Shown: positions 33,300 through 59,844 of the stretch, one piece after another
Position numbering within the stretch: the stretch's first letter is position 1
How the letters are laid out: every line of letters begins with the position of its first letter
Notes under the pieces: generated by a model
Told to the model about the DNA's origin: nothing
What the model saw: only the letters and a program-made list of their open reading frames with translations
Database searches by the model: none
NCBI GenBank assembly: GCA_973895155.1
Contig: OZ316895.1
Location: 13,067,086 to 13,131,085 of the forward strand
Direction: 5' to 3'
Origin: Marsupella aquatica
Taxonomy: Eukaryota > Plantae > Marchantiophyta
DNA length: 64,000 nt
Made by a program: the position numbers and the translations under genes

Positions 33300-36200
33300 C
33301 TATCTTGATTCTGCTGACTTTGAGTAGCTATCTGCAGCTTGAACTAGCGATTGCAAGGACACTCGGACTCCAGGACCCATCTGCAAGAAGACACATTTCA
33401 AGTCATTGAGGTGAACAAGTACTAACAACAACGAAGACCACAAGAAAAAGGCACCGATCAATCATAGGACTTCTCATGTTGCAGTGCATACCGTGGAGGT
33501 AATCACAAAACTGTTTACATAACCTGCGTATCTTGAGGCTGCAACAGAAATACATTATCGTATTAATGCCTGTGCAAGAAACATGAAATCATCGCCAGCT
33601 TCATACAATGCATCGGGTAAGACCTAAACGTTTTTTTGCCTGATAGTCAAGCACTTAGCCCTCGATCTGAAGCCATGCACGTGCACTGTCAATTGTTTTG
33701 TATGGATGCTCACAAACACCTTTTTCGTACAGCTTGCTCACACATGTCCTTTCTTGCCCATGCACTCAGATGAGGGTAGATTCGTTACTACAGATGTCGT
33801 GAAACCCCTAAATGTAAAACCAGTCTTTGACTGAAAATTTGACAGCTAAAACACAGATTGACGAGTTGAGATAAGTCGAGTTTTGATCAATTTTCGAGTT
33901 TGAGACAAGAGTTTGCCTACGCTACAACCAATAGGTATGGAGACTTACTCTTCTTCAGGCCTGTGGGCTTTGCAGCCAGTAAGGCTCCAGTGAAGGCAGC
34001 AATGTTCTCCAAAAGAGCCTCGTCCTTGAAGCTGACCTGCAGATTATTGCCATAACATTAGAACACTCCATCCTGTAAGTCATATCTTCATCACATCCCA
34101 TGCTACACAGAACTAATAACTTCCTGACTGAAGCCAACACTGACAAAGTATATAAACTACACCGCCATCAAAGGAGTCCGGTTCCATAACAGTCGCCGGG
34201 ATATCCACAAGTTAATAATACTGATCGGGACTGTTTTGAGTTTGTGAATAGAGAGCCTATGCTGTTTGTTTCTATTCGAATCGTTCTACCTATCACTGCC
34301 AGACGCCAGAATGAAGAAACATACCTTGCCAAGACCAGCATGCACTATACCAGACTTGTCTGCTCGGAAGTCTACTCTTCCTTTCTTGGCGGCTCTTACA
34401 GCCTCTGTAACATTGGTAGTCACAGTTCCTACCTGATATATCCAAGCAGTACAGAAGAGTACAATCGATTTTAGATTTTCAACTCGCGTTGCATTCATAT
34501 TCTCAGAAATCACTTTAACAATTTCAAGTGTCTCAGTTGCCGATCGAGAAGCCTAAACTGAATGTCTCACGACAACGGAACACGACATCTATCAATCAGA
34601 GACGACTTGCACGAGATGAAAGGACTAAAGAAGCCATCAGCAGTCCTTCACCCTACAGTCACGAAGTTTGGGTTATCCAGAAAGATGAACTGCTCTGTTT
34701 TTCTCATCAGAAAGGGAAGAAACTGGAATGAGAAATGCTTACTTTGGGATTTGGCATCAACCCACGAGGTCCCAAGATGCGGGCCACCTGGAGCAGCAAA
34801 TTGAAAATGAGCCAGTGAGATACCAATGACACTCTAGTAACACTCTTCGAGGGTCACCAGTGCAAGATCAAATTCATTCATCACCACAGTTGAGCGAGTT
34901 TCGATTTTAACCTTGCCAAGCTTGGGCATAAATGACGGTGTAGCTATGCACTTATCAAAATCTAGCTTGCCTCCACCTGTAAATCCCATCCCAAGAACAA
35001 TGTGAGGATCGGAAAATTCCTCCAATTAGTAGTGAAGTTTGTAGCAGCTCAAACTAGATTGTGACATAATTCATGCCAGAAATTCACACTCTAGGATGTG
35101 CTTAGTAAAGCCGTCGGAATAGCATGTTGGCAGAGACTCCAAGAGATCGTGAGAGACAACAATGGATGCAGTTTAGACAGGAGTTAAGGAACTGGCTGTA
35201 CTTTCTTGAATCTCAGCCACTAGCGCATCACCTCCCACAACATCCGCACCAGCATTCGTGGCCTCCTCAGCTGCGGCTCCTTCTGCGAACACAGCTACCC
35301 TGACAACCTATCCCAAGACTCACTTGATATTTTCTTCGTACTGCAAACTGACCAGAAATGTGGAAACTACTCGCAGGAACTTGAACAGAAACAGTACTGC
35401 ACATCAATTGCAAAGCATTGTAGAGTTTAATACCTTGCCAATACCATGTGGAAGAGTTGCAGCACCGCGCACCGTCTGCCATAAGTGGATGTTCAAACAA
35501 TCAATCTCGCATGTAAATCGAAAGGTTCCGGGTTTAAAGTTTAAGATGTCACAGAGACGTATATTGCATATTAGTCCTGACATTCTCGCATTTGAAAGGC
35601 ATGACATGGCAGTCAGGACGACTCCTCTTCAAGTCATTCTGAGACTATTTAAATTGAGACTTTTGTGGGTCCAAAAAGCACTTCAATACTAACAGACTAC
35701 CCATAGGAGAATCATCGGCCTCTGTTACGGAGCTCAATTTCCATCTACTCAACTGAGGTAAAATCTAGCCAATGGACTCATTGAGCAGGACCCCAACCTG
35801 GTCACTCCTACGAGGATCGATTCCAAGCCGCACATGAGCTTCAAGACTCTCGTCGAAACGTGCACGAGCATTGGCCTGCATTGCCAAACAACCAGATCAC
35901 GCGCTTTCAAAGCTTATTGAAACCCCTCAGCCAGAGAGAGGGAGATGAGAGCCAAGGAGACACCACAAAATGAGGTGTTGTATGGAATATGGTCTCCCAT
36001 GTATAGAGAGATTGTGAAGAGATTGCAATATTTTTTTTCAATCATTAAATTCCAGACTGGCTTGAAAAATGGTCACAAATGTTCGCGGAACCCAAAACTA
36101 CCCTAAAACCCTGTAACCAACAAGCAGCGACCTTAAACCCTGATCGCAAGAAAAAGAATTAAATCGCTGACGGCTGATCCAGACCTTCACTTCACGTATG

Positions 36201-36628
36201 GCGTCGGCCAAAACAACGGGATTCCGCTTCTTCAATTGCGCAGCCTTCAGCAAGGTAGGGTAAGCCAGCTCCTTCGCTTCCTTCTCGCGCTTCAAGTCCT
36301 CGTCCTCATCCTCCTCCGCAATCTCTTTGGCCAGCGCCTGCAATTGTTCAGGCGTCAGATCCTCGGGAAGATTGGCCACACGAGGCTTCAGGACGGAGGA
36401 GTCGTCCTCCTCGCCGGGCTCCGTGGGATCCGAGGCGAAATGCTTTGCATCGGCGATCGAGTTGACGGGAGCGACTTGTTGAGGCACATCCGTCGCAAAC
36501 AGAGCTTTCGAGCGGAATGGGAAATTGTAGCTGGCAGATTGGAGGCTGAGAGACGATTTGGTTACAACACATTGGGAGAGTGTGGAACGCTGGTGTAGTA
36601 GCTGCCTCAGGAGGGCTGCCATCGCCAT
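33300..36628 (-). CDS. RPL1: Bacterial-type 50S ribosomal protein L1 (uL1), nuclear-encoded, probably mitochondrial; 367 aa, 10 exons
   Basis: GT-AG exons 36628-36185, 35875-35798, 35475-35434, 35307-35202, 34976-34912, 34787-34743, 34432-34325, 34036-33949, 33538-33492 and 33380-33300 total 1104 nt in frame. uL1 motifs: [97 protein letters not shown]. The Arg/Leu/Ser-rich, acid-free N-terminus suggests a mitochondrial presequence. Confidence 0.95.
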
Positions 36629-39087
36629 CGTTGGGCTCCTCCCAGGTCTTTGCCTCCTTCGCCCAGCTCAAACCTTTCGTCGAAAGAGAAACTGAGTCAA
36701 AAGACGAAGGGACAGTTTTCGACAAAGTTTCGTGGCACGACCTGTTTTTCGATAGAACAGAGGTCTCAAGCCTCAAAATTTGGACTCAAGCCTCAAAATT
36801 TGATGGATCTTAAGTTTGCAGTTAAGGACATAAATAGTTAACTATTAGTAAATTCAAAATCCTTGGATTTTTTTCTCATAAAGACTGCTCATATGCCAAA
36901 TGACTATAAGTCACTCCAGACGGTAGTGGGAAAATTAAAATACATAACATTGTGAAAAAGCTGTGGCCAAAAGCCATTGTGTGCAGCTGTAAAGCTTAGA
37001 TAGGCCCTAATAGACCTATTAGTAAAGTCAAGTGATATTGAGTGCAACTTTTAAAAACACTAAATAGCCCAAATGCCAGAGTTTTAATTGTTAGAAATTA
37101 ACTCTATGTTTTTTACTGTTGAGTTTGGTCTCACAAAGGTTAGTTAACCCTTGATTACTCAGGGACAAATCCACTAACTTAATCCACACTTCTTAGTATT
37201 GCTTGGGGGATACAAGTTGGAGGAAAAGCATTCTCTTCCTCATTCTTGACATGTATTACACTCTAGTGTTTTGGATTTTACACGGAATTTTCACTGTGGT
37301 GTCTTGACTATTTGGTGGGAGATTGAGTGTACTCTCATGTTCCGCTTATGCGCTGCCTAGTGTGAGCTGTCTGGTTTTGTATATTAATTTTAATACAATC
37401 ATGATAAATGAATAGATGATGAGTTCCATTTCACTGCCCTAACTGTGCCCTAGTGGAAGGGGAGAGTAACAATGTAGAGGTTTCACTATAGATTGTAGGC
37501 CCTTATCCTAGGTTTTGATCAGGCTTTGCTGAATAGATTTCAGAAATCTATCTGGTCCCAATTTGATTTCAAGACTTTTGAGATGATACCCTGTGGATTG
37601 TGACAGAGTTTACAACTTCACTCATTGGTGCCCTTCTCATTTCCAAAAAGTATTCAAAAGCAAAGGTTCTATATTCAATATATCCCTTGATATACCTGAG
37701 GATATACCCAAATAGTCTCTTCTTGGGCTAGTTAGAAGAGGTAAATGTAGAGGGTGAAACTCCAAAAAGTGAGGTGACTTAGACCCAGAAAAGTGTAACT
37801 GTAAACACTCTTTAGAACCTGTTAAGTCACCAAAACTGAGGTTGAGTTTTGCATCAGTCTTGACATTGCAAGTTGAGCAAAGACATGGACACTTCTACTG
37901 AATAGAAGCAGCACAAAATCATTCAATGCGAGGCGGCCCAGGCTACTGTGAAGAACTTGCAAACAGAACTTGCATGGTTTGCACTGAGTATGCTCAAGGA
38001 AATTTTCTAGATAACAAAACGAGAAACTCAGCAGCAAATGTAGAGGATTGAGCAAACACCGAGCTCTACTCAGTTGCTTCTTGAGCGAAGATCATGATCA
38101 ACAATTCCAGAGTTGCACACACAGCATACATGTTCTCTCAATTGTGAATTTATAACAGGAGGTGGTCTAAACTATTCCCTCCTCTGGCTTCTTCAATCAC
38201 AGGATTTGCATGTTTTTAACTACATTTTCAAGGAAAAGATTTTGGGTCTTGTCCCACTCCTTGCTCTTAAGATAGACAAGAAAGTGGCCTTCCAGTTTGC
38301 TTTGGTGAAGAAGAAATTCACCTGTGCCCCAATGTCTTGTCAAGTCACCCTATTCTCAGTCTTAAACTGCCACACTGAAGGAGCACAGAATCCTGGGATG
38401 TGGGTGTTGGTAGGAACAGGCTGCCATACAACTACAAATGAGGAGAGGAAGAAAAAGAGTGTAAGCATTTAATAGTATCCTAGGCCTGGAATATGAAATT
38501 GTGATCGCCTGTCCCTGTGGAAGCTGGAGGGTTCTCAATCCAAAGGCATGCCATGTTAGATAGAAGGTCTGACTATTAGGTGACACACATGCAAGGAAGT
38601 AACAATTTGATAAAGTAAATTTGATTGCAGTAATGTGATATCAATGAGAGTGGTGGTGTAGTTGCTTTGCCATCCGACAAAGAATTGGATTGCCATGCTT
38701 TTGCATGAGTTACTGATCTAAGAATTGAAGCATGCCATGTTATGTGACAGATCTCAACGTGCAGCATTGACGAGGGCGGTTAATTTCACTGGGTGAGAAC
38801 AGAGCCAGAAGTGCCAAACCATCGCATTGTTTATGGGAGGAATTCAGGGAGACAATGTAGTTGCATTGCATGATGATAATGGCGAGAGACGTTTCATCAT
38901 CACTCGAGAAAATCAGAGTCACAACCATCGATCCCATGGGGGTGCGATTATGCTGCGAAGATGAATTGCATAGACAAACAGCGAGTACACACCACCAATC
39001 TCAAGAAAGCTAGATAAGCAATGCCACATGACATGGGCAGGTTCACACATTGAAATAATTCACTCCAGTTGACATTCAATTTTAGTT

Positions 39088-39225
39088 TTACATCTGCCAG
39101 AATAGTGGCAGCCATATCTCCCTAACATCTGCCAGAATGGTGGCAGCAACAATGTCTCTAACATCTGCCAGAATAATGGCAGCAACGATCTCGCTCACAT
39201 CTGCCGGAATAATGGCAGTAACTAT
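39088..39225. repeat. Short tandem repeat (~35-37 bp unit, core ACATCTGCC.GAAT..TGGCAG) x4, mirrored at ~53195-53335
   Basis: Core occurs at ~39090, 39125, 39161 and 39197. Each unit contains a small inverted CTGCC...GGCAG. Confidence 0.8.
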
Positions 39226-40114
39226 CCCGCAACAATTTCTCTAAACACCTCCCAGAACTATTGGGCTATAAAAATGGATCCATGTGAATACTGTATACCA
39301 TCCCAGCCTGGAGATCAAGCAGACTGGGGACAAAGAATAAGTGCAATTCTTGATTGCCAGTAACTCTCAAAGCTGGCATTTCAGCTGAAGCTCTCAACAC
39401 TCTTATGCGCTACATGAGCTATGTCATTGCTGTCCGAGGAGAGACCTGAGGACAGACTGGATTTGTCGTCAATGTCATCCGTGGAAGCACTAATTGTGGT
39501 TCTCGTCCTGTCTACTAAGTAATAATCTGTGCACCAGTGGTCCTAACATATTATGGACCAATCGATGGTGACTCGAACTCTCAATCTAGAATCGTAGATT
39601 GGTAAATAATGGACTACAGGCCTACAATTATCTACAATTGTAATGAGCGTCTATCCACACACGCACGTATGTACAAAGTGTTGAACGTGCAGTAGTCTGC
39701 ACCGATTGCATACCTCCCGTGTTCCACTGGCCGGCATCCTCCGGAAAGAGAAAGACTACTCTTGGCACTTGAAAGTTGAAACACTGGAAAGACGGAACGG
39801 AAATCTGTCCTGTAAGATAAGTGTGCAATCGTTCCCCTGATGAAGAAGACCCACCCAGCTAGAACAGAGCAACACCCATGTCTGGTCAACCGGAGCAGGT
39901 CGGCAGTGCTGGTACCTCGCTGAAGAACTCTCCACTCGAATCGCTGTGTGATGGACTGACCAATTCACTCATTGCATCCGGAGCTCAGGAGCTGAAACTG
40001 ATAATAACTTCAGTCACTATATCGAGAGCTTATTCGTCAATATAAGATATCTAAGAGGAGGTATTACGCACACCGTACCATACCATACTCAGTAGCAAAT
40101 GGCAGGTCACGGTA

Positions 40115-43100
40115 TCAAATCGTGATCATGTGCACATTGTTCATTTGGTAAACATCCAAGTTGTTGACATGGATTGGAGTACTTCCGTTGTTGAAGAGGA
40201 AGAGATGCGAGTTCTCTTTGAGAGCTACTGTGGGGTACACCCTCGATGTCACCGCCTGCCTGCCGCCTTGCACAAAGGTCTCAACGATGGAGTGATCCAG
40301 CTGCATTTCAAAACAGCCATTAAAATATGAGTGACTAATTCAGCATATCTCACGACGAAACCAGCTCGAGTCACTATCGAATGTGAAAAATGTCCGAATC
40401 TCTCTGAAATGAAACCTATCCTCGTGACCGTAATGAGAGTGATTTTAAAGCTGAAACCACGTCAAGTCCAGAAAAGTAGATTCTATGACTCTAAATCAGC
40501 CGTACTCACCAGCACACGCATGGAGAGTTCGGTTTCCGTTGCCAAGACAGTGACAAAGCTGCCGTAGACAGTTTTGTCGATATCTGTCGCCAGAGAAGAT
40601 CTGCTCTGGTCGCTGCACACAATGGTAGACCACTGTCCGTTATCCTGGGCAGCAATGTAGAAGAAAACTGCGGTCTGCTCAAGCTGTGCATCGTCGGTGT
40701 GGACTAGAAATCCGAAGGGCCCAAATATCCCCTTCTGTGTCGACCCTCCTTGGCTGCAATCGAAGATCTCGGGATTCACGTTTCCGACGGCATAAACGTC
40801 CGGCTTTTCAAATGAAATCTCAATATCCAACTGCAAAACATACAGGAGTCACGAAACTTGTTAGATTTATTTTAAGAAATTCCATCTGGTATTGAACAAT
40901 CAGTCAATAACACTGGTCACCGGCCCACACGCTGATCACAAAAAGATTTCCAAAACATAGCGTGTCTAATGTTCCTGTTGTCAACTAAACAAGCAATCGC
41001 TGCGACAGAAATGTGACAATCTGTAAAGAGATGATGTTATCTACTCGCACACATACCTGAGATCCATCACCTCCTTCGACTTTGAGGACATCCCCCTCCT
41101 TCAAGGTAATGTTTTGGTAGGAAGCCTTGGCTCCACGCAAGTTGTTGACCTCCTCTACTGGCCATGTCAGCAAATTCTTCTGGGTCTTGTCGTCCAACCA
41201 AATTGTCCTTGGAATTGCCTGTCCAATCCGTCCAGGGTTAATTATCACCTAGCATAAACATGACCAGCACATACCATATATCTCTCCACACAAACTGGAG
41301 TAAAATTGTTGGCAATTTTCAAGCTATTTTGTCAGAATCCAATCCATAATTAAGCACACAATCAGAAACAATAGATAGGACAACTTGTCAACCTTGGTCG
41401 GGATCTGAAAGAGAAGTAGGTGCTCTACCTGAACGGAAGCCCACCCCTTGATGATGTCGTCTTCTTGAGTATCATCCTCACTGACCCAGCTCCACAAGAT
41501 GCGTCTGCCGGTGCTGGGGTCGTAGAAAGTCTTCGAGGCATAGAATTTTCCGTAATCGTACCGGTAGCCCTTGCCAACGTCCAGAGCAGGGTCATCAACA
41601 GTAAACTCGTGGGTCTCGGTGGAGTAAGTACCAATGGTGTAGTAATCTTGACCAATTGCGTCCAAACTGGCCTTCAAGACGTACTTGTACGAGTCCAAGT
41701 AGGTCTCTGGTCCCATCTTGGGGTGATCAATTTTCTCGACTGCTACTTCGGGTTTGTAACTGACTGGAAAGAAGTCCACACACTCCCACATCCCTGTGCC
41801 ATCAACCTTGTGCAAGTAGTTGGGAGCCAAATCCCACTCGGAGAAATCAGTGCTGCTGTACAGAAGAGACATTCCATCCTTAGTTCCGTCTGCTTGGTCC
41901 AACTTCGTTCCAATAATCAGCCTCCACAATCCATCAGCCTCCAGCCAGGCAGTCGTGGGGTCTCTGAAATCGTCCCTCTTGTAGCCCGCAGGGGTCTCCA
42001 GGATCGGATTGTTGTCCGCCTTCCTCCATTTCCTCAGCAATGGGTCCGAGAGGTCCACTGGGTAGGCCAGAGCTTGGGATTGGATACTGACGCCTGCCTC
42101 CGTTCGCCCGCCGGTGTAGCTGAGCACTGGAGTTCCATCTTTCAAGATTGTTGCAGAGCCAGACCACACACCATCGGCATCGTACCACTGGTCCGCATAC
42201 AGCGCCACCTCGAGGTAGGTCCAGTCAACCAAATCTGTTGACACTGCATGGCCCCAGGAGATATTGCCCCAGACGGCTGCGTTGGGGTTGTACTGGTAGA
42301 AGAAATGGTAGTAGCCTCCGTAGTACATAGGAGCTGCACAGTCGGAGAAAGCAAGATCAGTACGCCAATTACGTCATTTGTTACACTGCACTAAGACGTT
42401 TTCTCGAGTTCTAGGGGGGCACATTTCGTGAGAGAACAATGAGACGTGCGTGTGGTGCGAAGCCGGTAGCTTTAGTCTCAATAGATTAGTAGAGAGATAG
42501 GTGCATGCCAGAGCAAACTCCACTTGGCAAATTCAGAAACGGAGAGACCTAATAACGAATCGGGGAAAGACTACGGAATCATGACAGAAGCCCTTCGAGA
42601 TTACCGATCAAAAATTCCGAAAGGTCTGTGGCAAATGGAAACTAACAAGGGAGGATGAGTATGGCAGATTCGGAGATTCGAAGTGCCCAATTCAATTTAC
42701 TGGACTACTATGAATTAAACTAAGGTGAATACCATAAAATGGCGTGAAACCAGAGTTACAGATAGAGGAGAAAAAGGGGTGATTGGATAGCTGGGGAACT
42801 CTTTCCTTACTCTATTTCGGAACTGGCCATACTGAAGATATGGAGCAGACTGTCACTGCGTACAAAGAAAGACAACGAAAGAAAGAAATAAAGAAAAATC
42901 GGATTTGATGCTCACCATTGGGATCTGTTGACAGGAGCAAGTGAGCGCACATCCCCATATGACAGAAGCCAAACAAGAAGAGAAACTTCATCAGCCACAT
43001 CAATCTCTGCCATCCATGCTATAGAAATCACAACGTCGTGACAAAGGAATAACCAAGGGAAAAAGAATGCCAGTTGCTTAAATCAGCCGCCGAGTAGAAG

Positions 43101-43618
43101 CGCAGCTTAAATTGACAGTGAAATATACTGTAAGTTGCCAAAAATTGACCATCAATTGTACGTGCAAATTGGAATGTGGAATGTGGCCTACCGTTCATCC
43201 AGTTCTTCTCAGGCTGGAAGTGGAAAGCCGTTTTGGAAGCTTTGTAGAAAGCAGCATTCTCACTGCCTCCGTTAGCAGCACCAACCCCGACCCTCCATGC
43301 TGATTTCTCGACCTGAATCTGGGGGTCCGGAGCAGAAGCCTTCTGCAGGCTTGAATTGTATGAAATCGCTGCTCCACTCACGAACAGGATGGTGGCAATG
43401 CAGCAAATCGAGATGGCCAGGACGCCCGTCCAGCCGTTACTCTTCCGCTGAGAAGAAGCCGCACCGTCGTTGGAAGCGTTTGCTGCTGCTCCTTCTGCCT
43501 CGGACGCGGGTGCTGCACAGTAGTCCTCATTTACGCGTGAAATCCTTGCAGTTGCTCCGCTCTCGATATCGTGCGATTGTTGGACTAACAACGGCGCTTG
43601 TATCTCAGAATTCCCCAT
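40115..43618 (-). CDS. Vacuolar-type acid beta-fructofuranosidase (invertase), glycoside hydrolase family 32, copy A; 669 aa, 6 exons
   Basis: Exons 43618-43192, 42924-42916 (9-nt DPN mini-exon), 42333-41429, 41218-41057, 40830-40510 and 40300-40115. Motifs: [39 protein letters not shown] (vacuolar Val), [15 protein letters not shown]-terminal transmembrane segment present. Confidence 0.96.
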
Positions 43619-44560
43619 GTTTGTTATCAGAAGGGACCAATATATGTCGAAGAATTGGGTAAACAAAATTTACTGTGTCTCCTCTCCTCTCGTCAAGCAG
43701 GTTCCTTCGTGTTCTGCCGGATTAGATTGCGTAACATGTCACTAACGTCAAACTCTTTCAGAACTGACAACAACTTAGCACTACCGATGCTCCAATGCTG
43801 CTTGATTGGCTGCTACTGCAAACGCATCTCTCACTGGAGTGCTCTCCCACACTTTGATGGTGGAACTAATGCCGGACTGCTGGGATCTTATGCAGCCAGG
43901 AAGTGAGCGATGGGCCCGTGAAGAAATTGTTTGAGAGAAGAAAAATGAAAATGTACAGCACACCTATTGCTAGATGATAATAGCAACGGGGAAGACCTAT
44001 CGTAACCTCGATCAGCCCACACGGCCAGACAATTTTTCTGGTGGAACGATCTGTGAGTAATCCTGAAGCAAGTCAATATTCCATTCCTCTGCGTCACTCG
44101 GCAACTACCGTATATCGACCAAGGCACGGTTGATTAGTTAATTGGCTGCATATCTAAATAACGCCTGGATAAGTTTTCCTTGCATTACACGAATTTGCGT
44201 TGGGTTTCGTCCGCAGTGCAGTAACTTGACTGAGTAGTATTCAGAAAGTCAATTCCAAACTCCGCAAGTCATTCGGTCCGAGCTCGAGAGCCACGAGAGA
44301 AGCTTGCAGGAGCAGCAGCGTCCCGCACTCCCAGTCCCATCCCAAGCGGCTTCGTAACTTCCTTCGTTCAACGTCGGCGGCTCAGCTAGCACGGTTATGG
44401 TGTTCCCTTCTCATCAGTGGCCCCACAACAACATATCCGTGTCCGAGCTTGATCAGGATTCACGAAGTTACGTGACTCCCTCTACGAATAAGTGCTGCAA
44501 CTGCACTGTTGACCACGTCTCGTCACGTTTCAGCGTTCCTGACTTTCCCTGAAATGTTTT

Positions 44561-44950
44561 CAGAGGCGTCTGTGTAAATTGAACAGCTGAATCTGTGACT
44601 TTTGCTATCGTTTTGTGATGGTAGGGACACAAAAAGGCATCGCCAATGGGAATCGAGCAGTTTAGTCTGTCACTTCGCCTTCGTTTTGGGTTTGTACAAA
44701 CTCAAATCGCGTCATGGTCACTCACAGAAACCTCCTCTGTTGACACACAAGAGAGAAGGTCAGAGGCGTCTGTGTAAATTGAACAGCTGAATCTGTAACT
44801 TCGCTTTCGTTTCGGGTTTATTGGTAGGACCCAAAGGCATCGCCAGTGGGAATCGAGCAGTTCAGTATATCACTTCGCCATCGTTTTGGGTATGTAGAAA
44901 CTCAAACGCGTATTGCTCACTCGCAGAAATCCTCTTCTGTTGACACAAAA
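44561..44950. repeat. 200 bp tandem duplication upstream of invertase copy A
   Basis: CAGAGGCGTCTGTGTAAATTGAACAGCTGAATCTGT occurs at 44561 and 44761, with similarity along the whole unit. Only one diverged inverted copy exists upstream of copy B (~47655-47790). Confidence 0.88.
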
Positions 44951-45190
44951 CAGAAACGATAACTCTAAGATAAAATAACGACCGCCAACGACCGCGCCGA
45001 TCGAGTCCACTATTCGATCTTCATCAGTTCCTTCTCCTCTCGCATGTCGACGTGATGGTCCAGTTTCCATGGCGTTGAATGGTTTTCCAGGTCTTCGGAT
45101 TGAAATTTGACCCACGGACTGTATCCGTTAGTATTTTAACGGGGGCCATTCTGCCGCCGGGGAAATTGTCGTCTGGGATGGTTCTCGGCA

Positions 45191-46422
45191 AAGTCGGCTC
45201 TCTCTAAGCGCACACTACCCCATAAGCGCAAAAACGGACTTAGTGCAAGGCATCCTGTTCTTCCCTTTTATTTTACTTTTATTTTCCACTGAAGTTGCAC
45301 TTTGTTGTATTTTTTTATGTGCAAACAGGCCTTGGATCACTGTTCTTCCCTATTATTTTACTTTTATTTTACACGGAGGTTGCACTTTGTTGTATCCTTT
45401 TTATGTGCAAACAGGCCTGGAATCACTTTGCTGAAAGACAACCTCATAAGTGAAAAGCCCTCGTTAATTGCATTTTGTACTCTACTATGAATGTGTGTGC
45501 ACTTATCAGTAAGCGCAAAGTCCCATTAGATTGCTTTTATTCAGAAGCGGACATCCATTTGTAGTAGGGGAAAAATGTACTTATGGCGCTGGACACAGAT
45601 TTAGGGCAGGGGTGTACAATTTGTGTAACAAGTCAAGAGACTGCTCACAGTTGGAGGGGTTTTGCACTTATCAAGGCATGCAGAAACAGGTTTATTGCAC
45701 ACCAGATCCGTCTTCCAAAGAGGTGTGCACTTAGATGAATTAAGTGTGGCTACGCATAGGGTCTAAGCATGTGCACATGGGGAAAAAGCATGCCCAAGGG
45801 CTAGGAGGTGACTAGGATGGGTAATGGTTTTGCTGCCCCCAAGTTCATGTAAAGTGAAATCTTGCCACATTCAATGGCCAGGATTACATTTCACACATAG
45901 CACAATAACAGCACAAAAACAAAAGCAAGGCAAGGCTAGTCGTATGATACATTAGCCCTTCCGCCATAGCCCAGATTGGGCTAAAGATGACTGTACAGTC
46001 AGCTTGCCTTAACTGAAACCTGGATAAATACAAGGACTCATGCTATTCCCTTTTTTTTAACACAGAGTTTACACTTTTGTTGCACCTTTGTAAGTGCAAA
46101 CAGTCCTGAAATATTTTTCTAAACAACAACTTTATAAGTGAAAAACCTTGATAATTGTAATGTACACTTACCTGAAAGCTCACAATTCCACCATTGCATT
46201 TGCTCATACGTGCATGCCCCGGGCTAGTAGAGTAAAAAATGCTCTTATAGAGTAGGGCACCAAATCTAGGGCAGATATGTATAATTTGGGTTGCAAGTCA
46301 CAAGACTGCTTACTAATGGAGGGTGCACTCTTACCATTAAGTGCACAATTCTACAGGTTTGCAGTTATCAGAGGTAGACAGTACAAACCCCCATTTAGTG
46401 CACACTTATAGAGAGTTAACTG
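45191..46422. mobile_element. Putative non-autonomous DNA transposon (Tc1/mariner-pogo-like ends) in the palindrome spacer
   Basis: Imperfect terminal inverted repeats: left AAGTCGGCTCTCTCTAAGCGCACACTA; right, reverse-complemented, CAGTTAACTCTCTATAAGTGTGCACTA, flanked by TA. Internal diverged direct repeat (~45365-45660 vs ~46050-46325) and an ~84 bp tandem duplication near 45256-45420. No transposase ORF. Confidence 0.45.
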
Positions 46423-47104
46423 TATCACTTTGGTCAATCAATAGCACCTGTACAGGTAGCAGAGCTACTAAGTAGAGTATAGTCAAACCGACAACCATAC
46501 TGGTGACTTGACAGCAGGTCATTGGGTTTCATCTTATCAACCTGATATATGTGGAGGGAAGACATGATTTGTAACTACCAGGCCCTCAAGGGAGAAAAAA
46601 GTCTCAAGTCTCAAACTAATCAAAATCAGTACATGTGTTTATAGTGTTTGGCATCATTTATTTAAATAGACCCATAACCTGAAGAGACAAATTCAAACAA
46701 AATTTAAGGAGACCAATTCCAGTAATAGTAGACAAGCAAACCTAGCTCCATGCAATAGCCCCTTGGTAAAGTCAATTATCTGGAATCTAACTACTGTATA
46801 TAATTGGGATGGGAAGCTACTCTTCAGGTCCTATTGTCTAGAGTGTAACCTCTAGACACACAATTGATAACAAATCAGCAGCATGTAGCTAGTAGGACTA
46901 CATAGATTTCGAAGTTAATAACCAAACATGCATCGATAATCTAATTTTACACATCATTTTAAAGCCACTGAACCTCTGGGCCTGCTTGGCCTGGGGATTA
47001 TGAAATTTGAATGAGAAATAGAGTAAAGTGCAAGTGACAAACACTGACTGATCAGACTCTTCTTATGTAAAATTGAATTGAATGCTATGTACAAATTATG
47101 TAAA

Positions 47105-47600
47105 ATATTCACTCAGGCTTTATGCTTGGCAACTCATCCCCACTTGAGTATAATGACTGTAATCTCTTTGGGCTCAGCACCCTCAGGGATTACAACCCAC
47201 TAGCTTAACTACCTGTTCCTTTAACATAAATAGAATTGAAAATTAAAAAAATAAAATCTAAAATAATCTATACACTTTTTGGTTATCTTTGCATACTTAT
47301 TTTTTTGTGCAACATTGAGATTTGTCTTATTGAGAGTCATTATACATTTAGTCCTTGTTTGAGTTAGGGTCTAGAGGCTTCACTCAAGACCCCCTAGCCC
47401 TTAAAAGTAACTTCTGTTTCCTATTATATAGTAAGAGTATTCCCTCTTTTATATAGTAAGATTATGCCCCCTTGGAGATGAATGCTGCGCAAAACTTCAC
47501 TCAGGCTTTACACTGTAACTCATTCCCACTTAGGGATCATGGCTATAACCCTCAGGCTCAGCGCTCTTGGGATTAGAGCCCATTATCCTTGGGGATGGAT
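47105..47600. repeat. Repeat-derived segment: ~95 bp direct repeats (47109, 47496) flanking the dispersed repeat shared with 23700-23885
   Basis: TTCACTCAGGCTTTA...AACTCAT.CCCACTT...GGCTCAGC.C...GGGATTA...CCCA.TA occurs twice, about 390 bp apart. Confidence 0.65.
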
Positions 47601-48806
47601 TACCCTACACGTTTTAGGTACAATGTTCCAACACGAGGATTTCCACGAGTGATCATGACGCGTTTGAGTTTCGAGAAACCCAAGCGAAGGCAAAGTAACA
47701 GATTAAACTGTTCGATATCCACTGGCGATGCCTTTGGGTCTATACAATATCATAAATAAACTGTAAAACAATGTCACAGATTCAGCTGTTCAACTCCCAA
47801 CATGACTCTCAGACTCTGAACCCGTTTGCCAAAACATTTCAGGGAAGTCAAGACGCGCTGAAACGGGATGAGACGATGTCAACAGTGTCGTTGCAGCACT
47901 TATTTGATGAGGGAGTCACGAAACTCTCCCAAGGAAGACCGATGTGAGTACGGATATGTTATTGTTTGTGCAAGCGAGAAGGGGACCACCATAACCATGG
48001 CAACTGAGCCGCCCGACGTTGTTGAACCAACCAAGGAACGAAGTTACGCTGCTGCTATCGCAAGGTTCTCTCGTGGATCTCGAGTCTCGAGTCTCGATTG
48101 TTTCGGACCGGATGCCCACAGTTTGGCTAGCTTGCGGAGAATGGCACTATTTAACTTTTTGATATGCTACCCAGTCAAGTTACTGCACTGCGGACGAAAT
48201 CCAACCTCTACTCGTGCAATGCAAGGAATAGCTTCTCCCCGCATTATAATAAGCAACTAATCAACCAATCAACCAATCAACAGTGGCTTGGTCGATATCC
48301 GGTAGTTGCCGAGTGATCCGGTAGTTGCCGAGTGATGCATAGGAATGGAATGTTGACATGCTTCTGGATTCCTCACTGCTAGTTCCACCAGGAAAATGTC
48401 AGGCTGTGTACGTAGGCTGAGGATACGATAGGTCTTCCACGTTGCTATTATTATCCAGCAATAGGTGTGCGTACATTTTTCCTTTCTTTCTCTCAATTTC
48501 TTCATGGACCCATCGCTCACTTCCTGGCTGTATAAGATCCCAGCAGTTCGGCATTAGTTCCACAATCGAAGTGTGGGAGCGCAGTCCAGCGAGACATGCG
48601 TTCGCAGTAGCAGCCAAGCAAGCAGCATTAGTGCATCGGTAGTGCTAAGTTGTTGTCAGTTCTGAAAGAGTTCGACGATACTGTTGTGTTACAGAATCTA
48701 AGCGAGCAGAACACGAAGGAACCTTCTTGAGGAGACGAGAAGAGAGGAGAGGAGAAGAAAATTTGTTTCCCAATCTTCAATCAGTGGTCCATTCTGATAA
48801 CAAATA

Positions 48807-51800
48807 ATGGGGAACTCTGAGATACAAGCGCCGTTGTTAGTCCAACAATCGCACGATATCGAGAGCGGAGCAACTGCAAGGATTTCACGCGTAAATGAGG
48901 ACTACTGTGCAGCACCCGGGTCCGAGGCAGAAGGAGCAGCAGCAAACGCTTCCAACGACGGTGCGGCTTCTTCTCAGCGGAAGAGTAACGGCTGGACGGG
49001 CGTCCTGGCCATCTCGATTTGCTGCATTGCCACCATCCTGTTCGTGAGTGGAGCAGCGATTTCATACAATTCAAGCCTGCAGAAGGCTTCTGCTCCGGAC
49101 CCCCAGATTCAGGTCGAGAAATCAGCATGGAGGGTCGGGGTTGGTGCTGCTAACGGAGGCAGTGAGAATGCTGCTTTCTACAAAGCTTCCAAAACGGCTT
49201 TCCACTTCCAGCCTGAGAAGAACTGGATGAACGGTAGGCCACATTCCACATTCCAATTTGCACGTACAATTGATGGTCAATTTTTGGCAACTTACAGTAT
49301 ATTTCACTGTCAATTTAAGCTGCGCTTCTACTCGGCGGCTGATTTAAGCAACTGGCATTCTTTTTCCCTTGGTTATTCCTTTGTCACGACGTTGTGATTT
49401 CTATAGCATGGATGGCAGAGATTGATGTGGCTGATGAAGTTTCTCTTCTTGTTTGGCTTCTGTCATATGGGGATGTGCGCTCACTTGCTCCTGTCAACAG
49501 ATCCCAATGGTGAGCATCAAATCCGATTTTTCTTTATTTCTTTCTTTCGTTGTCTTTCTTTGTACGCAGTGACAGTCTGCTCCATATCTTCAGTATGGCC
49601 AGTTCCGAAATAGAGTAAGGAAAGAGTTCCCCAGCTATCCAATCACCCCTTTTTCTCCTCTATCTGTAACTCTGGTTTCACGCCATTTTATGGTATTCAC
49701 CTTAGTTTAATTCATAGTAGTCCAGTAAATTGAATTGGGCACTTCGAATCTCCGAATCTGCCATACTCATCCTCCCTTGTTAGTTTCCATTTGCCACAGA
49801 CCTTTCGGAATTTTTGATCGGTAATCTCGAAGGGCTTCTGTCATGATTCCGTAGTCTTTCCCCGATTCGTTATTAGGTCTCTCCGTTTCTGAATTTGCCA
49901 AGTGGAGTTTGCTCTGGCATGCACCTATCTCTCTACTAATCTATTGAGACTAAAGCTACCGGCTTCGCACCACACGCACGTCTCATTGTTCTCTCACGAA
50001 ATGTGCCCCCCTAGAACTCGAGAAAACGTCTTAGTGCAGTGTAACAAATGACGTAATTGGCGTACTGATCTTGCTTTCTCCGACTGTGCAGCTCCTATGT
50101 ACTACGGAGGCTACTACCATTTCTTCTACCAGTACAACCCCAACGCAGCCGTCTGGGGCAATATCTCATGGGGCCATGCAGTGTCAACAGATTTGGTTGA
50201 CTGGACCTACCTCGAGGTGGCGCTGTATGCGGACCAGTGGTACGATGCCGATGGTGTGTGGTCTGGCTCTGCAACAATCTTGAAAGATGGAACTCCAGTG
50301 CTCAGCTACACCGGCGGGCGAACTGAGGCAGGCGTGAGTATCCAATCCCAAGCTCTGGCCTACCCAGTGGACCTCTCGGACCCATTGCTGAGGAAATGGA
50401 GGAAGGCGGACAACAATCCGATCCTGGAGACCCCTGCGGGCTACAAGAGGGACGATTTCAGAGACCCCACGACTGCCTGGCTGGAGGCTGATGGATTGTG
50501 GAGGCTGATTATTGGAACGAAGTTGGACCAAGCAGACGGAACTAAGGATGGAATGTCTCTTCTGTACAGCAGCACTGATTTCTCCGAGTGGGATTTGGCT
50601 CCCAACTACTTGCACAAGGTTGATGGCACAGGGATGTGGGAGTGTGTGGACTTCTTTCCAGTCAGTTACAAACCCGAAGTAGCAGTCGAGAAAATTGATC
50701 ACCCCAAGATGGGACCAGAGACCTACTTGGACTCGTACAAGTACGTCTTGAAGGCCAGTTTGGACGCAATTGGTCAAGATTACTACACCATTGGTACTTA
50801 CTCCACCGAGACCCACGAGTTTACTGTCGATGACCCTGCTCTGGACGTTGGCAAGGGCTACCGGTACGATTACGGAAAATTCTATGCCTCGAAGACTTTC
50901 TACGACCCCAGCACCGGCAGACGCATCTTGTGGAGCTGGGTCAGTGAGGATGATACTCAAGAAGACGACATCATCAAGGGGTGGGCTTCCGTTCAGGTAG
51001 AGCACCTACTTCTCTTTCAGATCCCGACCAAGGTTGACAAGTTGTCCTATCTATTGTTTCTGATTGTGTGCTTATGGATTGGATTCAGACAAAATAGCTT
51101 GAAAATTGCCAACAATTTTACTCCAGTTTGTGTGGAGAGATATATGGTATGTGCTGGTCATGTTTATGCTAGGTGCTAATTAACCCTGGACGGATTGGAC
51201 AGGCAATTCCAAGGACAATTTGGTTGGACGACAAGACCCAGAAGAATTTGCTGACATGGCCAGTAGAGGAGGTCAACAACTTGCGTGGAGCCAAGGCTTC
51301 CTACCAAAACATTACCTTGAAGGAGGGGGATGTCCTCAAAGTCGAAGGAGGTGATGGATCTCAGGTATGTGTGCGAGTAGATAACATCATCTCTTTACAG
51401 ATTGTCACATTTCTGTCGCAGCGATTGCTTGTTTAGTTGACAACAGGAACACTAGACACGCTATGTTTTGGAAATCTTTTTGTGATCAGCGTGTGGGCCG
51501 GTGACCAGTGTTATTGACTGATTGTTCAATACCAGATGGAATTTCTTAAAATAAATCTAACAAGTTTCGTGACTCCTGTATGTTTTGCAGTTGGATATTG
51601 AGATTTCATTTGAAAAGCCGGACGTTTATGCCGTCGGAAACGTGAATCCCGAGATCTTCGATTGCAGCCAAGGAGGGTCGACACAGAAGGGGATATTTGG
51701 GCCCTTCGGATTTCTAGTCCACACCGACGATGCACAGCTTGAGCAGACCGCAGTTTTCTTCTACATTGCTGCCCAGGATAACGGACAGTGGTCTACCATT

Positions 51801-52306
51801 GTGTGCAGCGACCAGAGCAGATCTTCTCTGGCGACAGATATCGACAAAACTGTCTACGGCAGCTTTGTCACTGTCTTGGCAACGGAAACCGAACTCTCCA
51901 TGCGTGTGCTGGTGAGTACGGCTGATTTAGAGTCATAGAATCTACTTTTCTGGACTTGACGTGGTTTCAGCTTTAAAATCACTCTCATTACGGTCACGAG
52001 GATAGGTTTCATTTCAGAGAGATTCGGACATTTTTCACATTCGATAGTGACTCGAGCTGGTTTCGTCGTGAGATATGCTGAATTAGTCACTCATATTTTA
52101 ATGGCTGTTTTGAAATGCAGCTGGATCACTCCATCGTTGAGACCTTTGTGCAAGGCGGCAGGCAGGCGGTGACATCGAGGGTGTACCCCACAGTAGCTCT
52201 CAAAGAGAACTCGCATCTCTTCCTCTTCAACAACGGAAGTACTCCAATCCATGTCAACAACTTGGATGTTTACCAAATGAACAATGTGCACATGATCACG
52301 ATTTGA
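48807..52306 (+). CDS. Vacuolar-type acid beta-fructofuranosidase (invertase), glycoside hydrolase family 32, copy B; 669 aa, 6 exons
   Basis: Exons 48807-49233, 49501-49509 (ATCCCAATG mini-exon), 50092-50996, 51203-51364, 51591-51911 and 52121-52306 total 2010 nt in frame. Same motifs as copy A. The only amino-acid difference I found is AAPASEA vs AAPGSEA in exon 1. Confidence 0.96.
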
Positions 52307-53457
52307 TACCGTGACCTGCCATTTGCTACTGAGTATGGTATGGTACGGTGTGCGTAATACCTCCTCTTAGATATCTTATATTGACGAATAAGCTCTCGAT
52401 ATAGTGACTGAAGTTATTATCAGTTTCAGCTCCTGAGCTCCGGATGCAATGAGTGAATTGGTCAGTCCATCACACAGCGATTCGAGTGGAGAGTTCTTCA
52501 GCGAGGTACCAGCACTGCCGACCTGCTCCGGTTGACCAGACATGGGTGTTGCTCTGTTCTAGCTGGGTGGGTCTTCTTCATCAGGGGAACGATTGCACAC
52601 TTATCTTACAGGACAGATTTCCGCTCCGTCTTTCCAGTGTTTCAACTTTCAAGTGCCAAGAGTAGTCTTTCTCTTTCCGGAGGATGCCGGCCAGTGGAAC
52701 ACGGGAGGTATGCAATCGGTGCAGACTACTGCACGTTCAACACTTTGTACATACGTGCGTGTGTGGATAGACGCTCATTACAATTGTAGATAATTGTAGG
52801 CCTGTAGTCCATTATTTACCAATCTACGATTCTAGATTGAGAGTTCGAGTCACCATCGATTGGTCCATAATATGTTAGGACCACTGGTGCACAGATTATT
52901 ACTTAGTAGACAGGACGAGAACCACAATTAGTGCTTCCACGGATGACATTGACGACAAATCCAGTCTGTCCTCAGGTCTCTCCTCGGACAGCAATGACAT
53001 AGCTCATGTAGCGCATAAGAGTGTTGAGAGCTTCAGCTGAAATGCCAGCTTTGAGAGTTACTGGCAATCAAGAATTGCACTTATTCTTTGTCCCCAGTCT
53101 GCTTGATCTCCAGGCTGGGATGGTATACAGTATTCACATGGATCCATTTTTATAGCCCAATAGTTCTGGGAGGTGTTTAGAGAAATTGTTGCGGGATAGT
53201 TACTGCCATTATTCCGGCAGATGTGAGCGAGATCGTTGCTGCCATTATTCTGGCAGATGTTAGAGACATTGTTGCTGCCACCATTCTGGCAGATGTTAGG
53301 GAGATATGGCTGCCACTATTCTGGCAGATGTAAAACTAAAATTGAATGTCAACTGGAGTGAATTATTTCAATGTGTGAACCTGCCCATGTCATGTGGCAT
53401 TGCTTATCTAGCTCTCTTGAGATTGGTGGTGTGTACTCGCTGTTTGTCTATGCAATT
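48807..53457 (+). repeat. Right arm of large inverted repeat (near-identical core)
   Basis: Reverse complement of 38964-43618. Diverged homology continues outward to ~54330 and inward to ~47655. Confidence 0.97.
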
Positions 53458-56400
53458 GATCTTGGCAGCATTATCGCACACCCAATTGATCTTGGCAGCA
53501 TTATCACACACCCAATTGATCGATGAAACGTCTCGATCTCGCCAAGATGAGGCATTATCATCATGCAATGCAATTACATTGTCTCTCTGAATTTCTCCCC
53601 CAGACAATGCTTTGGTATGGCTTTTCTGGCTCTCTGCTCTCCCAATGCCGCACGTTGAGATCTGTTACATAACATGGCGTGTTTCTTAGATCAGGGTCTC
53701 ATCCAAAATCATGGCAGTCCAATTCTTTGTAGGATGGCCAAGCAACTAGACCACCACTCCCATTAAAATCACATTAGTGTAGTCGATTTCTTTAAATCAC
53801 AACTGGCCATATATAAGGGAGGAAGTGTCCAAGACCTCCCACTTTTTCCACATTTCTCCTCTCCCTGCCAGTTTGCTCCAGGATTCCAAGAACAATTTAC
53901 TTCTAATGGTAGCTACTGGTAATCTGTAGTGTATTACCCTATAGTCAGACCTTCTATATAAAATGGTATGCCTTTCGATTGAGAAGCCTCAAGCTCCGAC
54001 AGCAACAGGTGGTCGAGGCAATTAATCACAATCTCGTCATCCAGGCATACGATTTACAATTACTTGCTTACGCTCTAGCTCTAATATTAAGTCTCCTCTT
54101 TTTCTTCCTCTTCACATAATTGTAGTTGCATGCCACCCAGTTTAAAACTAAGACTTAGGGTGGACTTACAAGACATGAGACTCTTCAACGTTTCTTAACC
54201 AAAGCCAACTGGAGTGCCACTTCGTCTTCTAAAAATAGACTCCAGACCAAAAACTTCTGAAATGAAGGTCAATCCATACAAATCTTGTGAATGAAGGAGC
54301 AGGAGTTTGAAAATGTTTGGACCACCTCTCAGGTGCTCTAAAATTCTAGACCATGGGTGACATTATATCATTCAAATTTCTACTTTGTGACTTAAAACTT
54401 AATGTCATTGTTTTGAGCTTCACACTAGCTCGGTGCTAAAACTGAAACTCGTATTTTAGTAAGCCTTTTGTTAGTAACTAATGATTCAACGTGTCAGGTA
54501 AACCCCTCCCATGAAGGGTTGTCCAAAATGAAAGAACGAGGGCTGAGTAGCTGAAATCCCTTCGAGATTTTTGTCTTTGTATTTTTCTGGACTTTATGGA
54601 CAAGAATGCCCATCACATGCTCTGCTTGATAGGGCATTCCCTACTCATCGTTTGGTTAATTAAAGAGGTAGTCGGAGTTTGATTTTCTTGAAGCTGCTAT
54701 ATGGTGAATGCAACTTTCAGTATTTTGTCTTATTCAAACTTCTTTTGTTATGCATTTTTATTTCAATGTGTCTTACCAAGGTGCATCCCTTGTATAGTTC
54801 AGATTTCCAATTTATTTTGGCACCCCTCTAATTTTTTTAAATCTTTGCTATATTTTAAGATCATCCACCCTCTAACAAAGCTCGTTGAATTTCTAGCCCT
54901 TATTCTCATGAGTAAGGAAGAAATGATCTAAATAATGTGCGCACCTTATATCTTTAAGTACTACTCATGGTTTTGTGTCCTAAATTTTATGGTTTTAATT
55001 ATTTTGAGTGTCATTACCTAAAGTAAGTACATAAATATCTCTACTCATGTACATTATGTGCACATCCCAATACCATAAACTTAAACTTTCCTGTTCATTA
55101 TTATTTTCTTTACATGTGTACTTTTATTTTTGTACCTTATGTGCACAAGTTTCAATATCATAGACTGTATGTCTTCCTAGTCAATGTCCTGTTTATATTT
55201 TAATTAGAACATCTGTATATCACTAAAATACAAAACAAAAAATGAAGCATGTTCCAGGATGAGCATGCTATATCGGAGTAATTAAACAGTCGGAGTGACA
55301 AATATTCCAAAGATCAAAGTCCACTAACTCCTTGTTACCAGAGCAATATAGTCAATAAGAGTCCCTAAATTTAGGCTAAAGCCCCACTATAGTTTTGGGG
55401 GCATTACAGCTCACAGTGCTCTTAAAGCAGGGAGTCAAGACACTTCCACCAAACTGCCAAACAGAGTGTCACCAGGTAGTGTAAGTTGGATATGGATCTT
55501 ACAATTGCTCTCTAGCCAAAGAAGCTTGGGAAGTTGGTCATAAGTCATATCCCACATCCTAGAGATGAACACCACACTGGTCGGATTGTACCACTCGAAG
55601 GCATGTACTCAAGGACATGGGGATTTCATGTTATGACTGGTTGAAGTCTAGCTTCAAGTCCAGGACACTTGGGGGAAGGCACTTGGAAATAGGAGCAGTA
55701 AGTCCAAGACCAAGTTGGTGGTGGCTGGCACTTCTACACCATCAGGTATGCAACATCATGAGTGCATGCAGAAACCCAGAGTCCTGGTAATTGCAAATCA
55801 AAACCCTAAGCCAGATATGGTGTAGAACAACACTCAACGATTGAAACAGAATAATTGGGTTTGTTGTGGTATCAAAAACTTCAATTATATAGTGTTGCAC
55901 CAAAAAATGCAGTGGTCGTCATTTAAATTGTCTACTTAGAAGCATCACTATTACTCTTCCTCTTCAAGCTCTCATTTCTTGCTATGTGCTCTCTCTTGAA
56001 CACTCACAAACAAGTGCCCACACACTTGAGAACATGGAGAAGATAACCAACAATCTCTTCAACTAGGGTAAGAGCAAACCCTAGTTAACATATTCACCAT
56101 AGTTCATCCTAAGACTGAGTCACTATATTGTCATATTTTGGTGTGCACCCACAGTGTCAAGGAAAGGAAAGCAAAACATAGTTGAGGAGGACAAGCAACC
56201 CGAAGAGGAGAGCACAAAGAGCACTTCGGACTACCCCAGGGATGACTATGCGGAGGAGCCAATCGATTGCCATCAAATGGGAAAGGGGCTGGCAATTGAG
56301 TGCCCCTTTCAAGAGAAGTAAGTTGTGACCCAAAACCTCCACCACCAAATTCAACAGCGCAGGATATCTGAACCCAAAGAGAGGCCATACCCCGGGGTCC

Positions 56401-58493: not shown

Positions 58494-58514
58494 CGTGATC
58501 CCATTGACACGATG

Positions 58515-59830: not shown

Positions 59831-59844
59831 GTCGTTGAATTCCT

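What the first reader, a model, noticed from the sequence alone, without database searches (positions are those of the whole stretch)
38150..54330. 16 kb invertase palindrome with an old duplication but a near-identical core: candidate arm-to-arm gene conversion
Seen: two GH32 genes lie head-to-head around a ~2.7 kb unique spacer (~44920-47650). Homology spans ~38150-44915 vs ~47655-54330, but identity is stepped. The core 38964-43618 / 48807-53457 (all exons, all introns and ~1.15 kb of 3' flank) differs at only about a dozen sites by my count: one Ala/Gly change, about five synonymous changes, a 4-bp intron indel and a few non-coding SNPs. The promoter side and distal 3' flanks carry many substitutions and indels. 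Selection cannot explain near-identical introns, and a single recent duplication cannot explain diverged flanks on both sides. Established: palindrome arms on mammalian Y chromosomes are homogenised by gene conversion. Inference: a similar mechanism maintains a doubled sugar-metabolism gene here, which would matter in a haploid-dominant plant that lacks a homologue for repair for most of its life.
Basis: partly seen in the sequence, partly recalled or inferred. Interest (0 to 1): 0.78.

Follow-up and report, generated by a model that had tools for sequence, protein, structure and literature searches.

The report
Mirror-image invertase pair homogenised by conversion
A leafy-liverwort-type genome carries two back-to-back copies of a predicted sugar-splitting (invertase) gene that are 99.7% identical inside but about 20% different at their edges, and comparison with a related lineage shows the duplication is old, so one copy was likely overwritten from the other by gene conversion, a clean example of a process already described in flies and willow and proposed for moss.

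Summary
Observation confirmed. Two intact 669-aa GH32 genes lie head-to-head. A 4.65-kb core (start codon to 1.15 kb past the stop) differs by 11 substitutions and one 4-bp indel; the flanks differ by about 20%. A public run holds the core at about double depth, forking into both flanks exactly at the 3' core boundaries, which argues strongly against collapse; that run may be the assembly's source. A related lineage is 1-6% from the same-position flank, where the arms differ by 19-30%, yet 1-7% from the core, where the arms differ by 0-0.8%. So the duplication predates the lineage split and the core was homogenised afterwards, most likely by interlocus gene conversion, probably recurrent. The Y-like 'haploid repair' purpose is untested, and a similar idea is already in the moss literature. 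Closest precedent: Drosophila Amy-p/Amy-d and Hsp70 palindromic pairs. This scan noted the same pattern on other DNA. New member of a known kind.

The parts
40115..43618 (-). Left GH32 gene, 669 aa, six exons: 43618-43192, 42924-42916 (9-bp mini-exon), 42333-41429, 41218-41057, 40830-40510, 40300-40115
   Evidence: Exons mapped from the right copy through the alignment; open frame with a single terminal stop
48807..52306 (+). Right GH32 gene, 669 aa, six exons: 48807-49233, 49501-49509, 50092-50996, 51203-51364, 51591-51911, 52121-52306; all five introns GT..AG
   Evidence: Pfam PF00251 E 2.5e-81; 82% identical over the full length to Calypogeia fissa P0003/P0121
38964..43618 (-). Homogenised core, left arm
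   Evidence: 11 substitutions and a 4-bp indel against the right arm; X1 contig at depth 44 begins exactly at 38964
48807..53457 (+). Homogenised core, right arm (CDS 2010 bp, introns 1490 bp, 3' flank 1151 bp)
   Evidence: X1 contig at depth 44 ends exactly at 53457
43619..44954 (-). Diverged left promoter and 5' region, including a 200-bp tandem duplication at 44560-44954
   Evidence: 16-26% mismatch to the right promoter; tandem repeat; X1 contig 43885-44589 with 0 differences, depth 18.4
47629..48806 (+). Diverged right promoter and 5' region
   Evidence: X1 contig over 47700-48662 with 0 differences, depth 16.9
44955..47628 (.). Spacer, about 2.7 kb, not self-complementary, with dispersed repeats
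   Evidence: No inverted self-match above shuffles (score 28, shuffle maximum 32); X1 contig 44767-47013 with 0 differences, depth 17.4
38159..38963 (-). Diverged distal 3' flank, left arm
   Evidence: 20-23% mismatch plus indels; outer homology limit
53458..54328 (+). Diverged distal 3' flank, right arm; it begins inside a right-arm-only 30-bp tandem duplication (53453-53521)
   Evidence: X1 contig over 53428-54500 with 0 differences, depth 19.3

Best explanation
An old inverted duplication of a predicted vacuolar-type acid invertase gene, older than the split from a related lineage, has had its gene body made nearly identical again after that split, likely by repeated gene conversion in which a break in one arm would be repaired by copying the other arm. 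Shown: the stepped identity, the two-copy core in reads, flanks that group by position, and lineage-specific changes shared by both arms. Inferred: the copying is homologous-recombination repair between the arms (fold-back, or via the sister chromatid). Also inferred: tracts stop where divergence blocks pairing or where selection keeps two different promoters, and inverted orientation lets the pair persist because a crossover flips the spacer instead of deleting a gene. The likely outcome is one enzyme driven by two different promoters.
For: (1) Step from 20% to 0.2% and back to 21% mismatch, covering 2.6 kb of intron and 3' non-coding DNA. (2) Run X1: core contig depths average 36.8 (8 values) against 20.1 for flank and spacer contigs (6 values), ratio 1.84. 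Core and flank contigs overlap by exactly 30 bases at 38964 and at 53457. (3) Related lineage, flanks: 6 of 6 flank pieces examined (5 contigs, X4 and X5) are 1.0-6.3% from the same-position arm where the window's arms differ by 18.7-29.8%. (4) Related lineage, core: 10 of 10 core pieces examined are 1.0-7.3% from the window where the window's arms differ by 0-0.8%. (5) 21 of 21 core sites checked at which the related lineage differs are identical in both window arms. (6) At codons 111, 532 and 562 both arms carry G, T, A, while related-lineage contigs and both Calypogeia orthologues carry E, A, P, so the shared state is derived. (7) For recurrence: X5 gene-body contigs with 7-21 lineage-specific differences average depth 7.41 (6 contigs) against 4.72 for flank contigs (3). 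A 4-bp intron-2 deletion sits at about double depth in X3 (79.6), X4 (148.7) and X5 (8.8).
Against: The evidence that the related lineage's own arms are homogenised rests on contig depth. The ratio is only 1.57 in a low-depth run (X5), and X3/X4 are mixtures of two genomes, which inflates shared words. Some of its core pieces sit at single-copy depth (39001-39538 at 4.6 in X5; 53077-53444 at 91 in X4; an intron-2 deletion at 82.6 in X4 and 3.2 in X5), so homogenisation there is patchy or absent. The window's 12 differences are not significantly clustered (P 0.09, 0.30, 0.10 in three tests), which fits one event as well as many. Contigs show one allele per site: the left allele was seen in X1 at 7 of 12 sites and the right allele at 1 of 12. 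The right allele at 51452 and the left allele at 42089 were seen in no listed row. X1 may be the source of the assembly. No read spans an arm. Exon rows can be contaminated by further GH32 paralogues present in X1 at depth 11-19.
Confidence: 0.72

Rival explanations
1. One-off overwrite: a single long (4.65-kb) conversion or break-induced copying event replaced one gene body in this lineage, with no continuing maintenance.
For: Sharp single step at each end. Differences not significantly clustered. The 3' end coincides with a right-arm-only 30-bp tandem duplication that could be a repair scar.
Against: The related lineage appears to share its own variants between arms over parts of the gene body and not over others, which needs at least one further independent event. 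The Ala/Gly38 site shows one allele in an X4 contig and the other in an X5 contig of depth 3.55, hinting that the 5' end has an older history than the rest.
Confidence: 0.2
2. Assembly artefact: two diverged arms were collapsed or cross-polished into a near-identical core.
For: No long read spanning an arm was available. X1 may be the assembly's own data. Only one allele per site is visible in contigs.
Against: Diverged arms would give two single-depth contigs with many differences. X1 instead gives core contigs at 30-44 depth with 0-2 substitutions that fork into both flanks at the exact 3' boundaries, and both promoters are present at 17-18 depth. At 48919, 51087, 51176 and 53414 the left allele is seen in X1 and the right allele in X5.
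Confidence: 0.04
3. Recent duplication, or purifying selection alone, explains the identity.
For: The 5' step falls at the start codon, where selection on coding sequence begins.
Against: Introns and 1.15 kb of 3' flank are as identical as exons between arms, yet differ by up to 5-7% from the related lineage, so they are not frozen by selection. Both flank types exist in the related lineage, so the duplication is not recent.
Confidence: 0.02
4. Adaptive reading (not exclusive of the best explanation): the palindrome is kept because it gives a haploid gametophyte a repair template, as on Y chromosomes.
For: Closest relatives are liverworts. Retention of paralogues as pseudoalleles in a haploid-dominant plant has been hypothesised (PMC3729371, passage).
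Against: Same anatomy in diploid Drosophila (PMC3924832, passages). No sign of a sex chromosome. Three derived amino-acid changes were spread to both copies rather than corrected. From general knowledge, sister chromatids and not homologues are the usual mitotic repair template.
Confidence: 0.12

Closest known systems
Drosophila Amy-p/Amy-d and Hsp70Aa/Ab, Ba/Bb palindromic pairs (PMC3924832, passages read)
   Same: [quoted passage not shown]
   Different: Here the homogenised tract also covers five introns and 1.15 kb of 3' flank, and the host is a liverwort-type plant. Shared polymorphism within the species was not tested here.
Salix purpurea W-chromosome palindromes (PMC7023750, passages read)
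   Same: Plant palindrome; the same test (differences between species shared by the arms, few differences between arms, read depth as copy number); conversion limited to part of the arm.
   Different: There: 200-kb region, four arms, non-recombining sex chromosome. Here: 16 kb, two arms, one gene per arm, no evidence for a sex chromosome.
Physcomitrella tandemly arrayed genes and 'pseudoalleles' (PMC3045890 and PMC3729371, passages read; the primary sources they cite were not read)
   Same: Haploid-dominant plant with highly similar neighbouring duplicates, suggested to evolve by gene conversion.
   Different: In those passages conversion is inferred from similarity; here it is supported by diverged flanks and a related lineage, in a liverwort rather than a moss.
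Mammalian X and Y palindromes with arm-to-arm conversion (search listings and abstract starts only)
   Same: Inverted arms above 99% identity around a spacer.
   Different: Those arms are above 10 kb and sex-linked; here only 4.65 kb of a roughly 6.7-kb arm exceeds 99%.
Plant GH32 acid invertases (Pfam PF00251; PDB 3ugf, 2ac1, 1st8)
   Same: GH32 N-terminal domain, 9-bp mini-exon, motifs WMNDPNA, FRDP, WECVD, hydrophobic N-terminal segment at residues 67-85, acidic pI.
   Different: Invertase versus fructosyltransferase or fructan hydrolase activity was not tested; the first motif ends in A rather than G, as in both Calypogeia orthologues.

Membership tests
Inverted duplicate under concerted evolution by gene conversion (Amy/Hsp70 type) | Linked paralogues in mirror-image orientation | tested here: met
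Inverted duplicate under concerted evolution by gene conversion (Amy/Hsp70 type) | Duplication older than the split from a related lineage (flanks group by position) | tested here: met
   6 of 6 flank pieces examined are 1.0-6.3% from the same-position arm against 18.7-29.8% between arms
Inverted duplicate under concerted evolution by gene conversion (Amy/Hsp70 type) | Paralogues closer than orthologues in the tract, with derived changes shared by both copies | tested here: met
   10 of 10 core pieces examined; codons 111, 532, 562 polarised with two Calypogeia orthologues
Inverted duplicate under concerted evolution by gene conversion (Amy/Hsp70 type) | Independent homogenisation in a second lineage | tested here: inconclusive
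   Depth ratio 1.57 in X5, double depth for some variants in X3 and X4, single depth for others; no phased sequence
Inverted duplicate under concerted evolution by gene conversion (Amy/Hsp70 type) | Polymorphisms shared between paralogues within a population (ongoing conversion) | not testable with these tools
Sex-chromosome palindrome (Y/W type) | Location in a non-recombining sex-limited region | tested here: inconclusive
   Neighbour CFAP65 has its Marchantia orthologue on 31.6-31.9-Mb records; indirect, and no sexed samples
Sex-chromosome palindrome (Y/W type) | Arms above 10 kb at over 99% identity (definition from the abstract start of 10.1101/800185) | tested here: not met
   Arms about 6.7 kb, 4.65 kb above 99%
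Plant GH32 acid invertase, vacuolar type | GH32 domain with catalytic Asp/Asp/Glu motifs and 9-bp mini-exon (motif roles recalled) | tested here: met
   PF00251 E 2.5e-81; D143, D270, E329 and mini-exon
Plant GH32 acid invertase, vacuolar type | N-terminal membrane anchor and acidic pI (criterion recalled) | tested here: met
   Hydropathy peak 2.45 at residues 67-85; pI 4.6 for residues 121-669
Plant GH32 acid invertase, vacuolar type | Sucrose hydrolysis and vacuolar location | not testable with these tools
   Needs an enzyme assay and localisation

The most novel reading that the evidence does not exclude
Haploid-dominant liverworts keep key metabolic genes as 'pseudo-diploid' palindromes. 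Recurrent conversion holds the two coding regions as one allele, selection halts conversion at the start codon so that two different promoters survive, and occasional crossover flips the spacer. This locus, with a related lineage at a useful distance, would let conversion rate and the promoter barrier be measured in a bryophyte.
Probability: 0.15. Interest if true: 0.6.

Novelty: new member of a known kind. Interest (0 to 1): 0.33.

Why it matters
It is a clean, cross-lineage-supported case of conversion between inverted gene copies in a liverwort-type genome, where the idea has mostly been argued from similarity in moss. It warns that near-identical paralogues in bryophytes can be several times older than their coding divergence suggests: here 0.24% in the core against about 20% in the flanks. 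The stop at the start codon makes it a handy natural test of 'same enzyme, two promoters'. It does not show a new mechanism.

Tried and rejected
No whole genome is held for this window, so no genome-wide count of inverted pairs was possible. No RNA holder was listed; this says nothing about expression. No look-alike stretch in other scanned genomes. Clustering of the 12 core differences was tested three ways and is not significant. Nested strata in the flanks: the change-point search found none at the penalty used, although mismatch rises from 16% near the start codon to 26% distally. The spacer has no inverted self-match. A twin copy in Calypogeia fissa: the cluster of P0003 lists two full-length proteins on different contigs and one fragment, each with one accession, which gives no sign of a twin but is weak evidence. 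Sex linkage through CFAP65 found no support. Spacer-inversion polymorphism could not be tested because no contig spans a core. X5 has no cover in parts of both promoters, which proves nothing. PMC2817420 and PMC2871787 (passages) added nothing beyond a pointer to Hsp70. Paper searches (listings and abstract starts) showed no report of this locus or of a converted palindrome in a liverwort; the library lacks most subscription papers, so this is not proof of absence.
Full report
1. Observation. Self-BLAST of the window gives one long inverted match, 38611-44742 against 53794-47629. A local alignment extends the homology to 38159 / 54328 (score 95; best of 300 shuffles 30). Aligning the arms shows a core at 38964-43618 / 48807-53457 with 11 substitutions and one 4-bp indel. 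These fall as one Ala/Gly change at codon 38, five synonymous changes, three intron substitutions, the indel in intron 3, and two 3'-flank substitutions. A change-point search finds two steps only: mismatch 0.202, then 0.002, then 0.211. The longest identical run is 1248 columns against at most 233 in 2000 permutations.

2. The genes. Both copies have six exons with GT..AG introns, a 9-bp mini-exon and an open 669-codon frame. The large exon matches Pfam GH32 (E 2.5e-81) and solved plant invertases and fructan enzymes. The motifs WMNDPNA, FRDP and WECVD are intact. A hydrophobic segment at 67-85 and a pI of 4.6 fit a vacuolar-type acid invertase by recalled criteria; activity is untested. The nearest named relatives are two Calypogeia fissa proteins at 82%, and the neighbouring CFAP65 is 90% identical to C. 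fissa, so the host is likely a leafy liverwort.

3. Is the core an artefact? Five runs hold the region; four were laid on the left arm and three on the right. All are contigs, not reads. In X1, which matches the window and may be its source, core contig depths average 36.8 (8 values) and flank or spacer contigs 20.1 (6 values), a ratio of 1.84. The left flank contig (38027-38993) and the right flank contig (from 53428) each overlap the same 1242-base core contig by 30 bases, so the graph forks exactly at 38964 and 53457. Both promoters are present with no differences at depth 17-18. Collapsed diverged arms would not look like this. Limits: contigs show one allele per site (left allele seen in X1 at 7 of 12 sites, right allele at 1 of 12), and none spans an arm.

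4. Is the duplication old? X5 holds a lineage about 5-6% from the window in flanking DNA, and X3/X4 hold that type mixed with a window-like type. I compared 16 pieces from the tools' tables of longest contigs with the window's own arm-to-arm divergence over the same intervals. The tables are themselves cut (3163 and 604 further pieces not shown). I left out X1 and X3 pieces, window-identical and spacer pieces, repeats between the two calls, one X5 piece read as a further paralogue (50 differences in 382 bases) and one X4 piece (52563-52871, 22 differences, depth 38.9). Flanks: 6 of 6 pieces are 1.0-6.3% from the same-position arm where the arms differ by 18.7-29.8%; the distal figures are inflated somewhat by uncertain alignment. 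Core: 10 of 10 pieces are 1.0-7.3% from the window where the arms differ by 0-0.8%. Both flank types therefore existed before the lineages split, and the window's two cores became alike after it. All 21 core sites checked at which the related lineage differs are identical in both arms. At codons 111, 532 and 562 the related lineage and both Calypogeia orthologues agree against both window arms, so these are derived changes present in both copies, which requires copying between arms. Exon rows may include further paralogues, but the codon-562 contig aligns without gaps through intron 5.

5. Once or repeatedly? In X5, six gene-body contigs carrying 7-21 lineage-specific differences average depth 7.41 against 4.72 for three flank contigs. 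A 4-bp intron-2 deletion has about double depth in X3, X4 and X5. This suggests the related lineage homogenised its own arms. Other pieces sit at single depth (3' flank 39001-39538; an intron-2 deletion at 49646-49714), which suggests different tract ends. Against: depths are low or mixed, and the window's 12 differences are not significantly clustered. I put recurrent conversion at 0.72 and a one-off overwrite at 0.2. In rough relative terms, the arms split at 20-25% divergence, the lineages at 5-6%, and the last homogenisation at 0.24%.

6. How it likely works (inferred). A break in one arm is repaired from the other, 5 kb away in inverted orientation. Purifying selection keeps the exons alike enough to pair, and copying runs through the introns and into the 3' flank until divergence stops it. 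On the right arm the tract ends in a 30-bp tandem duplication. On the 5' side it ends at or just after the start codon, where 2 of the 12 differences lie within the first 113 bases. Either heterology or selection for two promoters could set that edge. A crossover would invert the spacer without gene loss.

7. Comparison with what is known. The closest case is Drosophila Amy-p/Amy-d, a palindromic carbohydrate-hydrolase pair with concerted coding regions and independent flanks, and the Hsp70 pairs (PMC3924832, passages). In plants, willow W palindromes were shown to convert by the same kind of test (PMC7023750, passages). Tandem genes of Physcomitrella were suggested to evolve by conversion, and paralogues to act as pseudoalleles in a haploid-dominant plant (PMC3045890, PMC3729371, passages). 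The locus fails the size criterion of sex-chromosome palindromes and shows no sign of sex linkage. Six searches (listings only) showed no report of this locus. Earlier notes of this scan describe the same pattern in an alpaca-like, an arthropod and a diplomonad genome (unchecked).

8. Verdict. Real, well supported, mechanism known. The haploid-repair purpose is an untested and previously voiced idea. New member of a known kind; interest 0.33.

Noticed in passing
runs X3 and X4, laid on window 37300-47650: Both runs hold two genome types: one identical to the window over 350-560-base contigs (depth about 19-24 in the X3 spacer) and one 5-6% diverged like X5 (depth about 37 in X3, 77-91 in X4). 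The ratio differs between the runs, which fits a mixed sample better than an allopolyploid.
   Followed up: partly
run X1, over the exons of 48807-52306: Contigs at depth 11-19 match the exons but skip or replace the introns: further, more distant GH32 paralogues elsewhere in the genome that were not homogenised.
   Followed up: no
window 48919 / 43506: The Ala/Gly38 difference shows the Ala allele in an X4 contig and the Gly allele in an X5 contig (depth 3.55); Calypogeia has Gly. It may be an arm-specific variant older than the lineage split.
   Followed up: partly
window 823-8000 (minus strand): CFAP65 flagellar gene with very long exons; 90% identical to Calypogeia fissa over the piece searched.
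   Followed up: partly
window 33300-36630 (minus strand): Multi-intron gene that looks by eye like an organellar ribosomal protein L1; its first exon had no Pfam hit.
   Followed up: no
window 57477-62239 (minus strand): LTR retrotransposon (zinc knuckle, reverse transcriptase, RNase H, integrase, in Ty3/gypsy order) broken into several frames, about 3 kb beyond the right arm.
   Followed up: no
window 28347-28659 and 12887-13042: Two imperfect self-complementary stretches (79% and 73%), possibly miniature inverted-repeat elements.
   Followed up: no
window 39090-39226 and 53187-53331: A 36-bp tandem array inside the homogenised 3' flank; the related lineage lacks about one unit (35-base skip).
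   Followed up: partly
proteins: Calypogeia fissa proteins come mostly in near-identical pairs on different contigs, as expected of two subgenomes or haplotypes.
   Followed up: no
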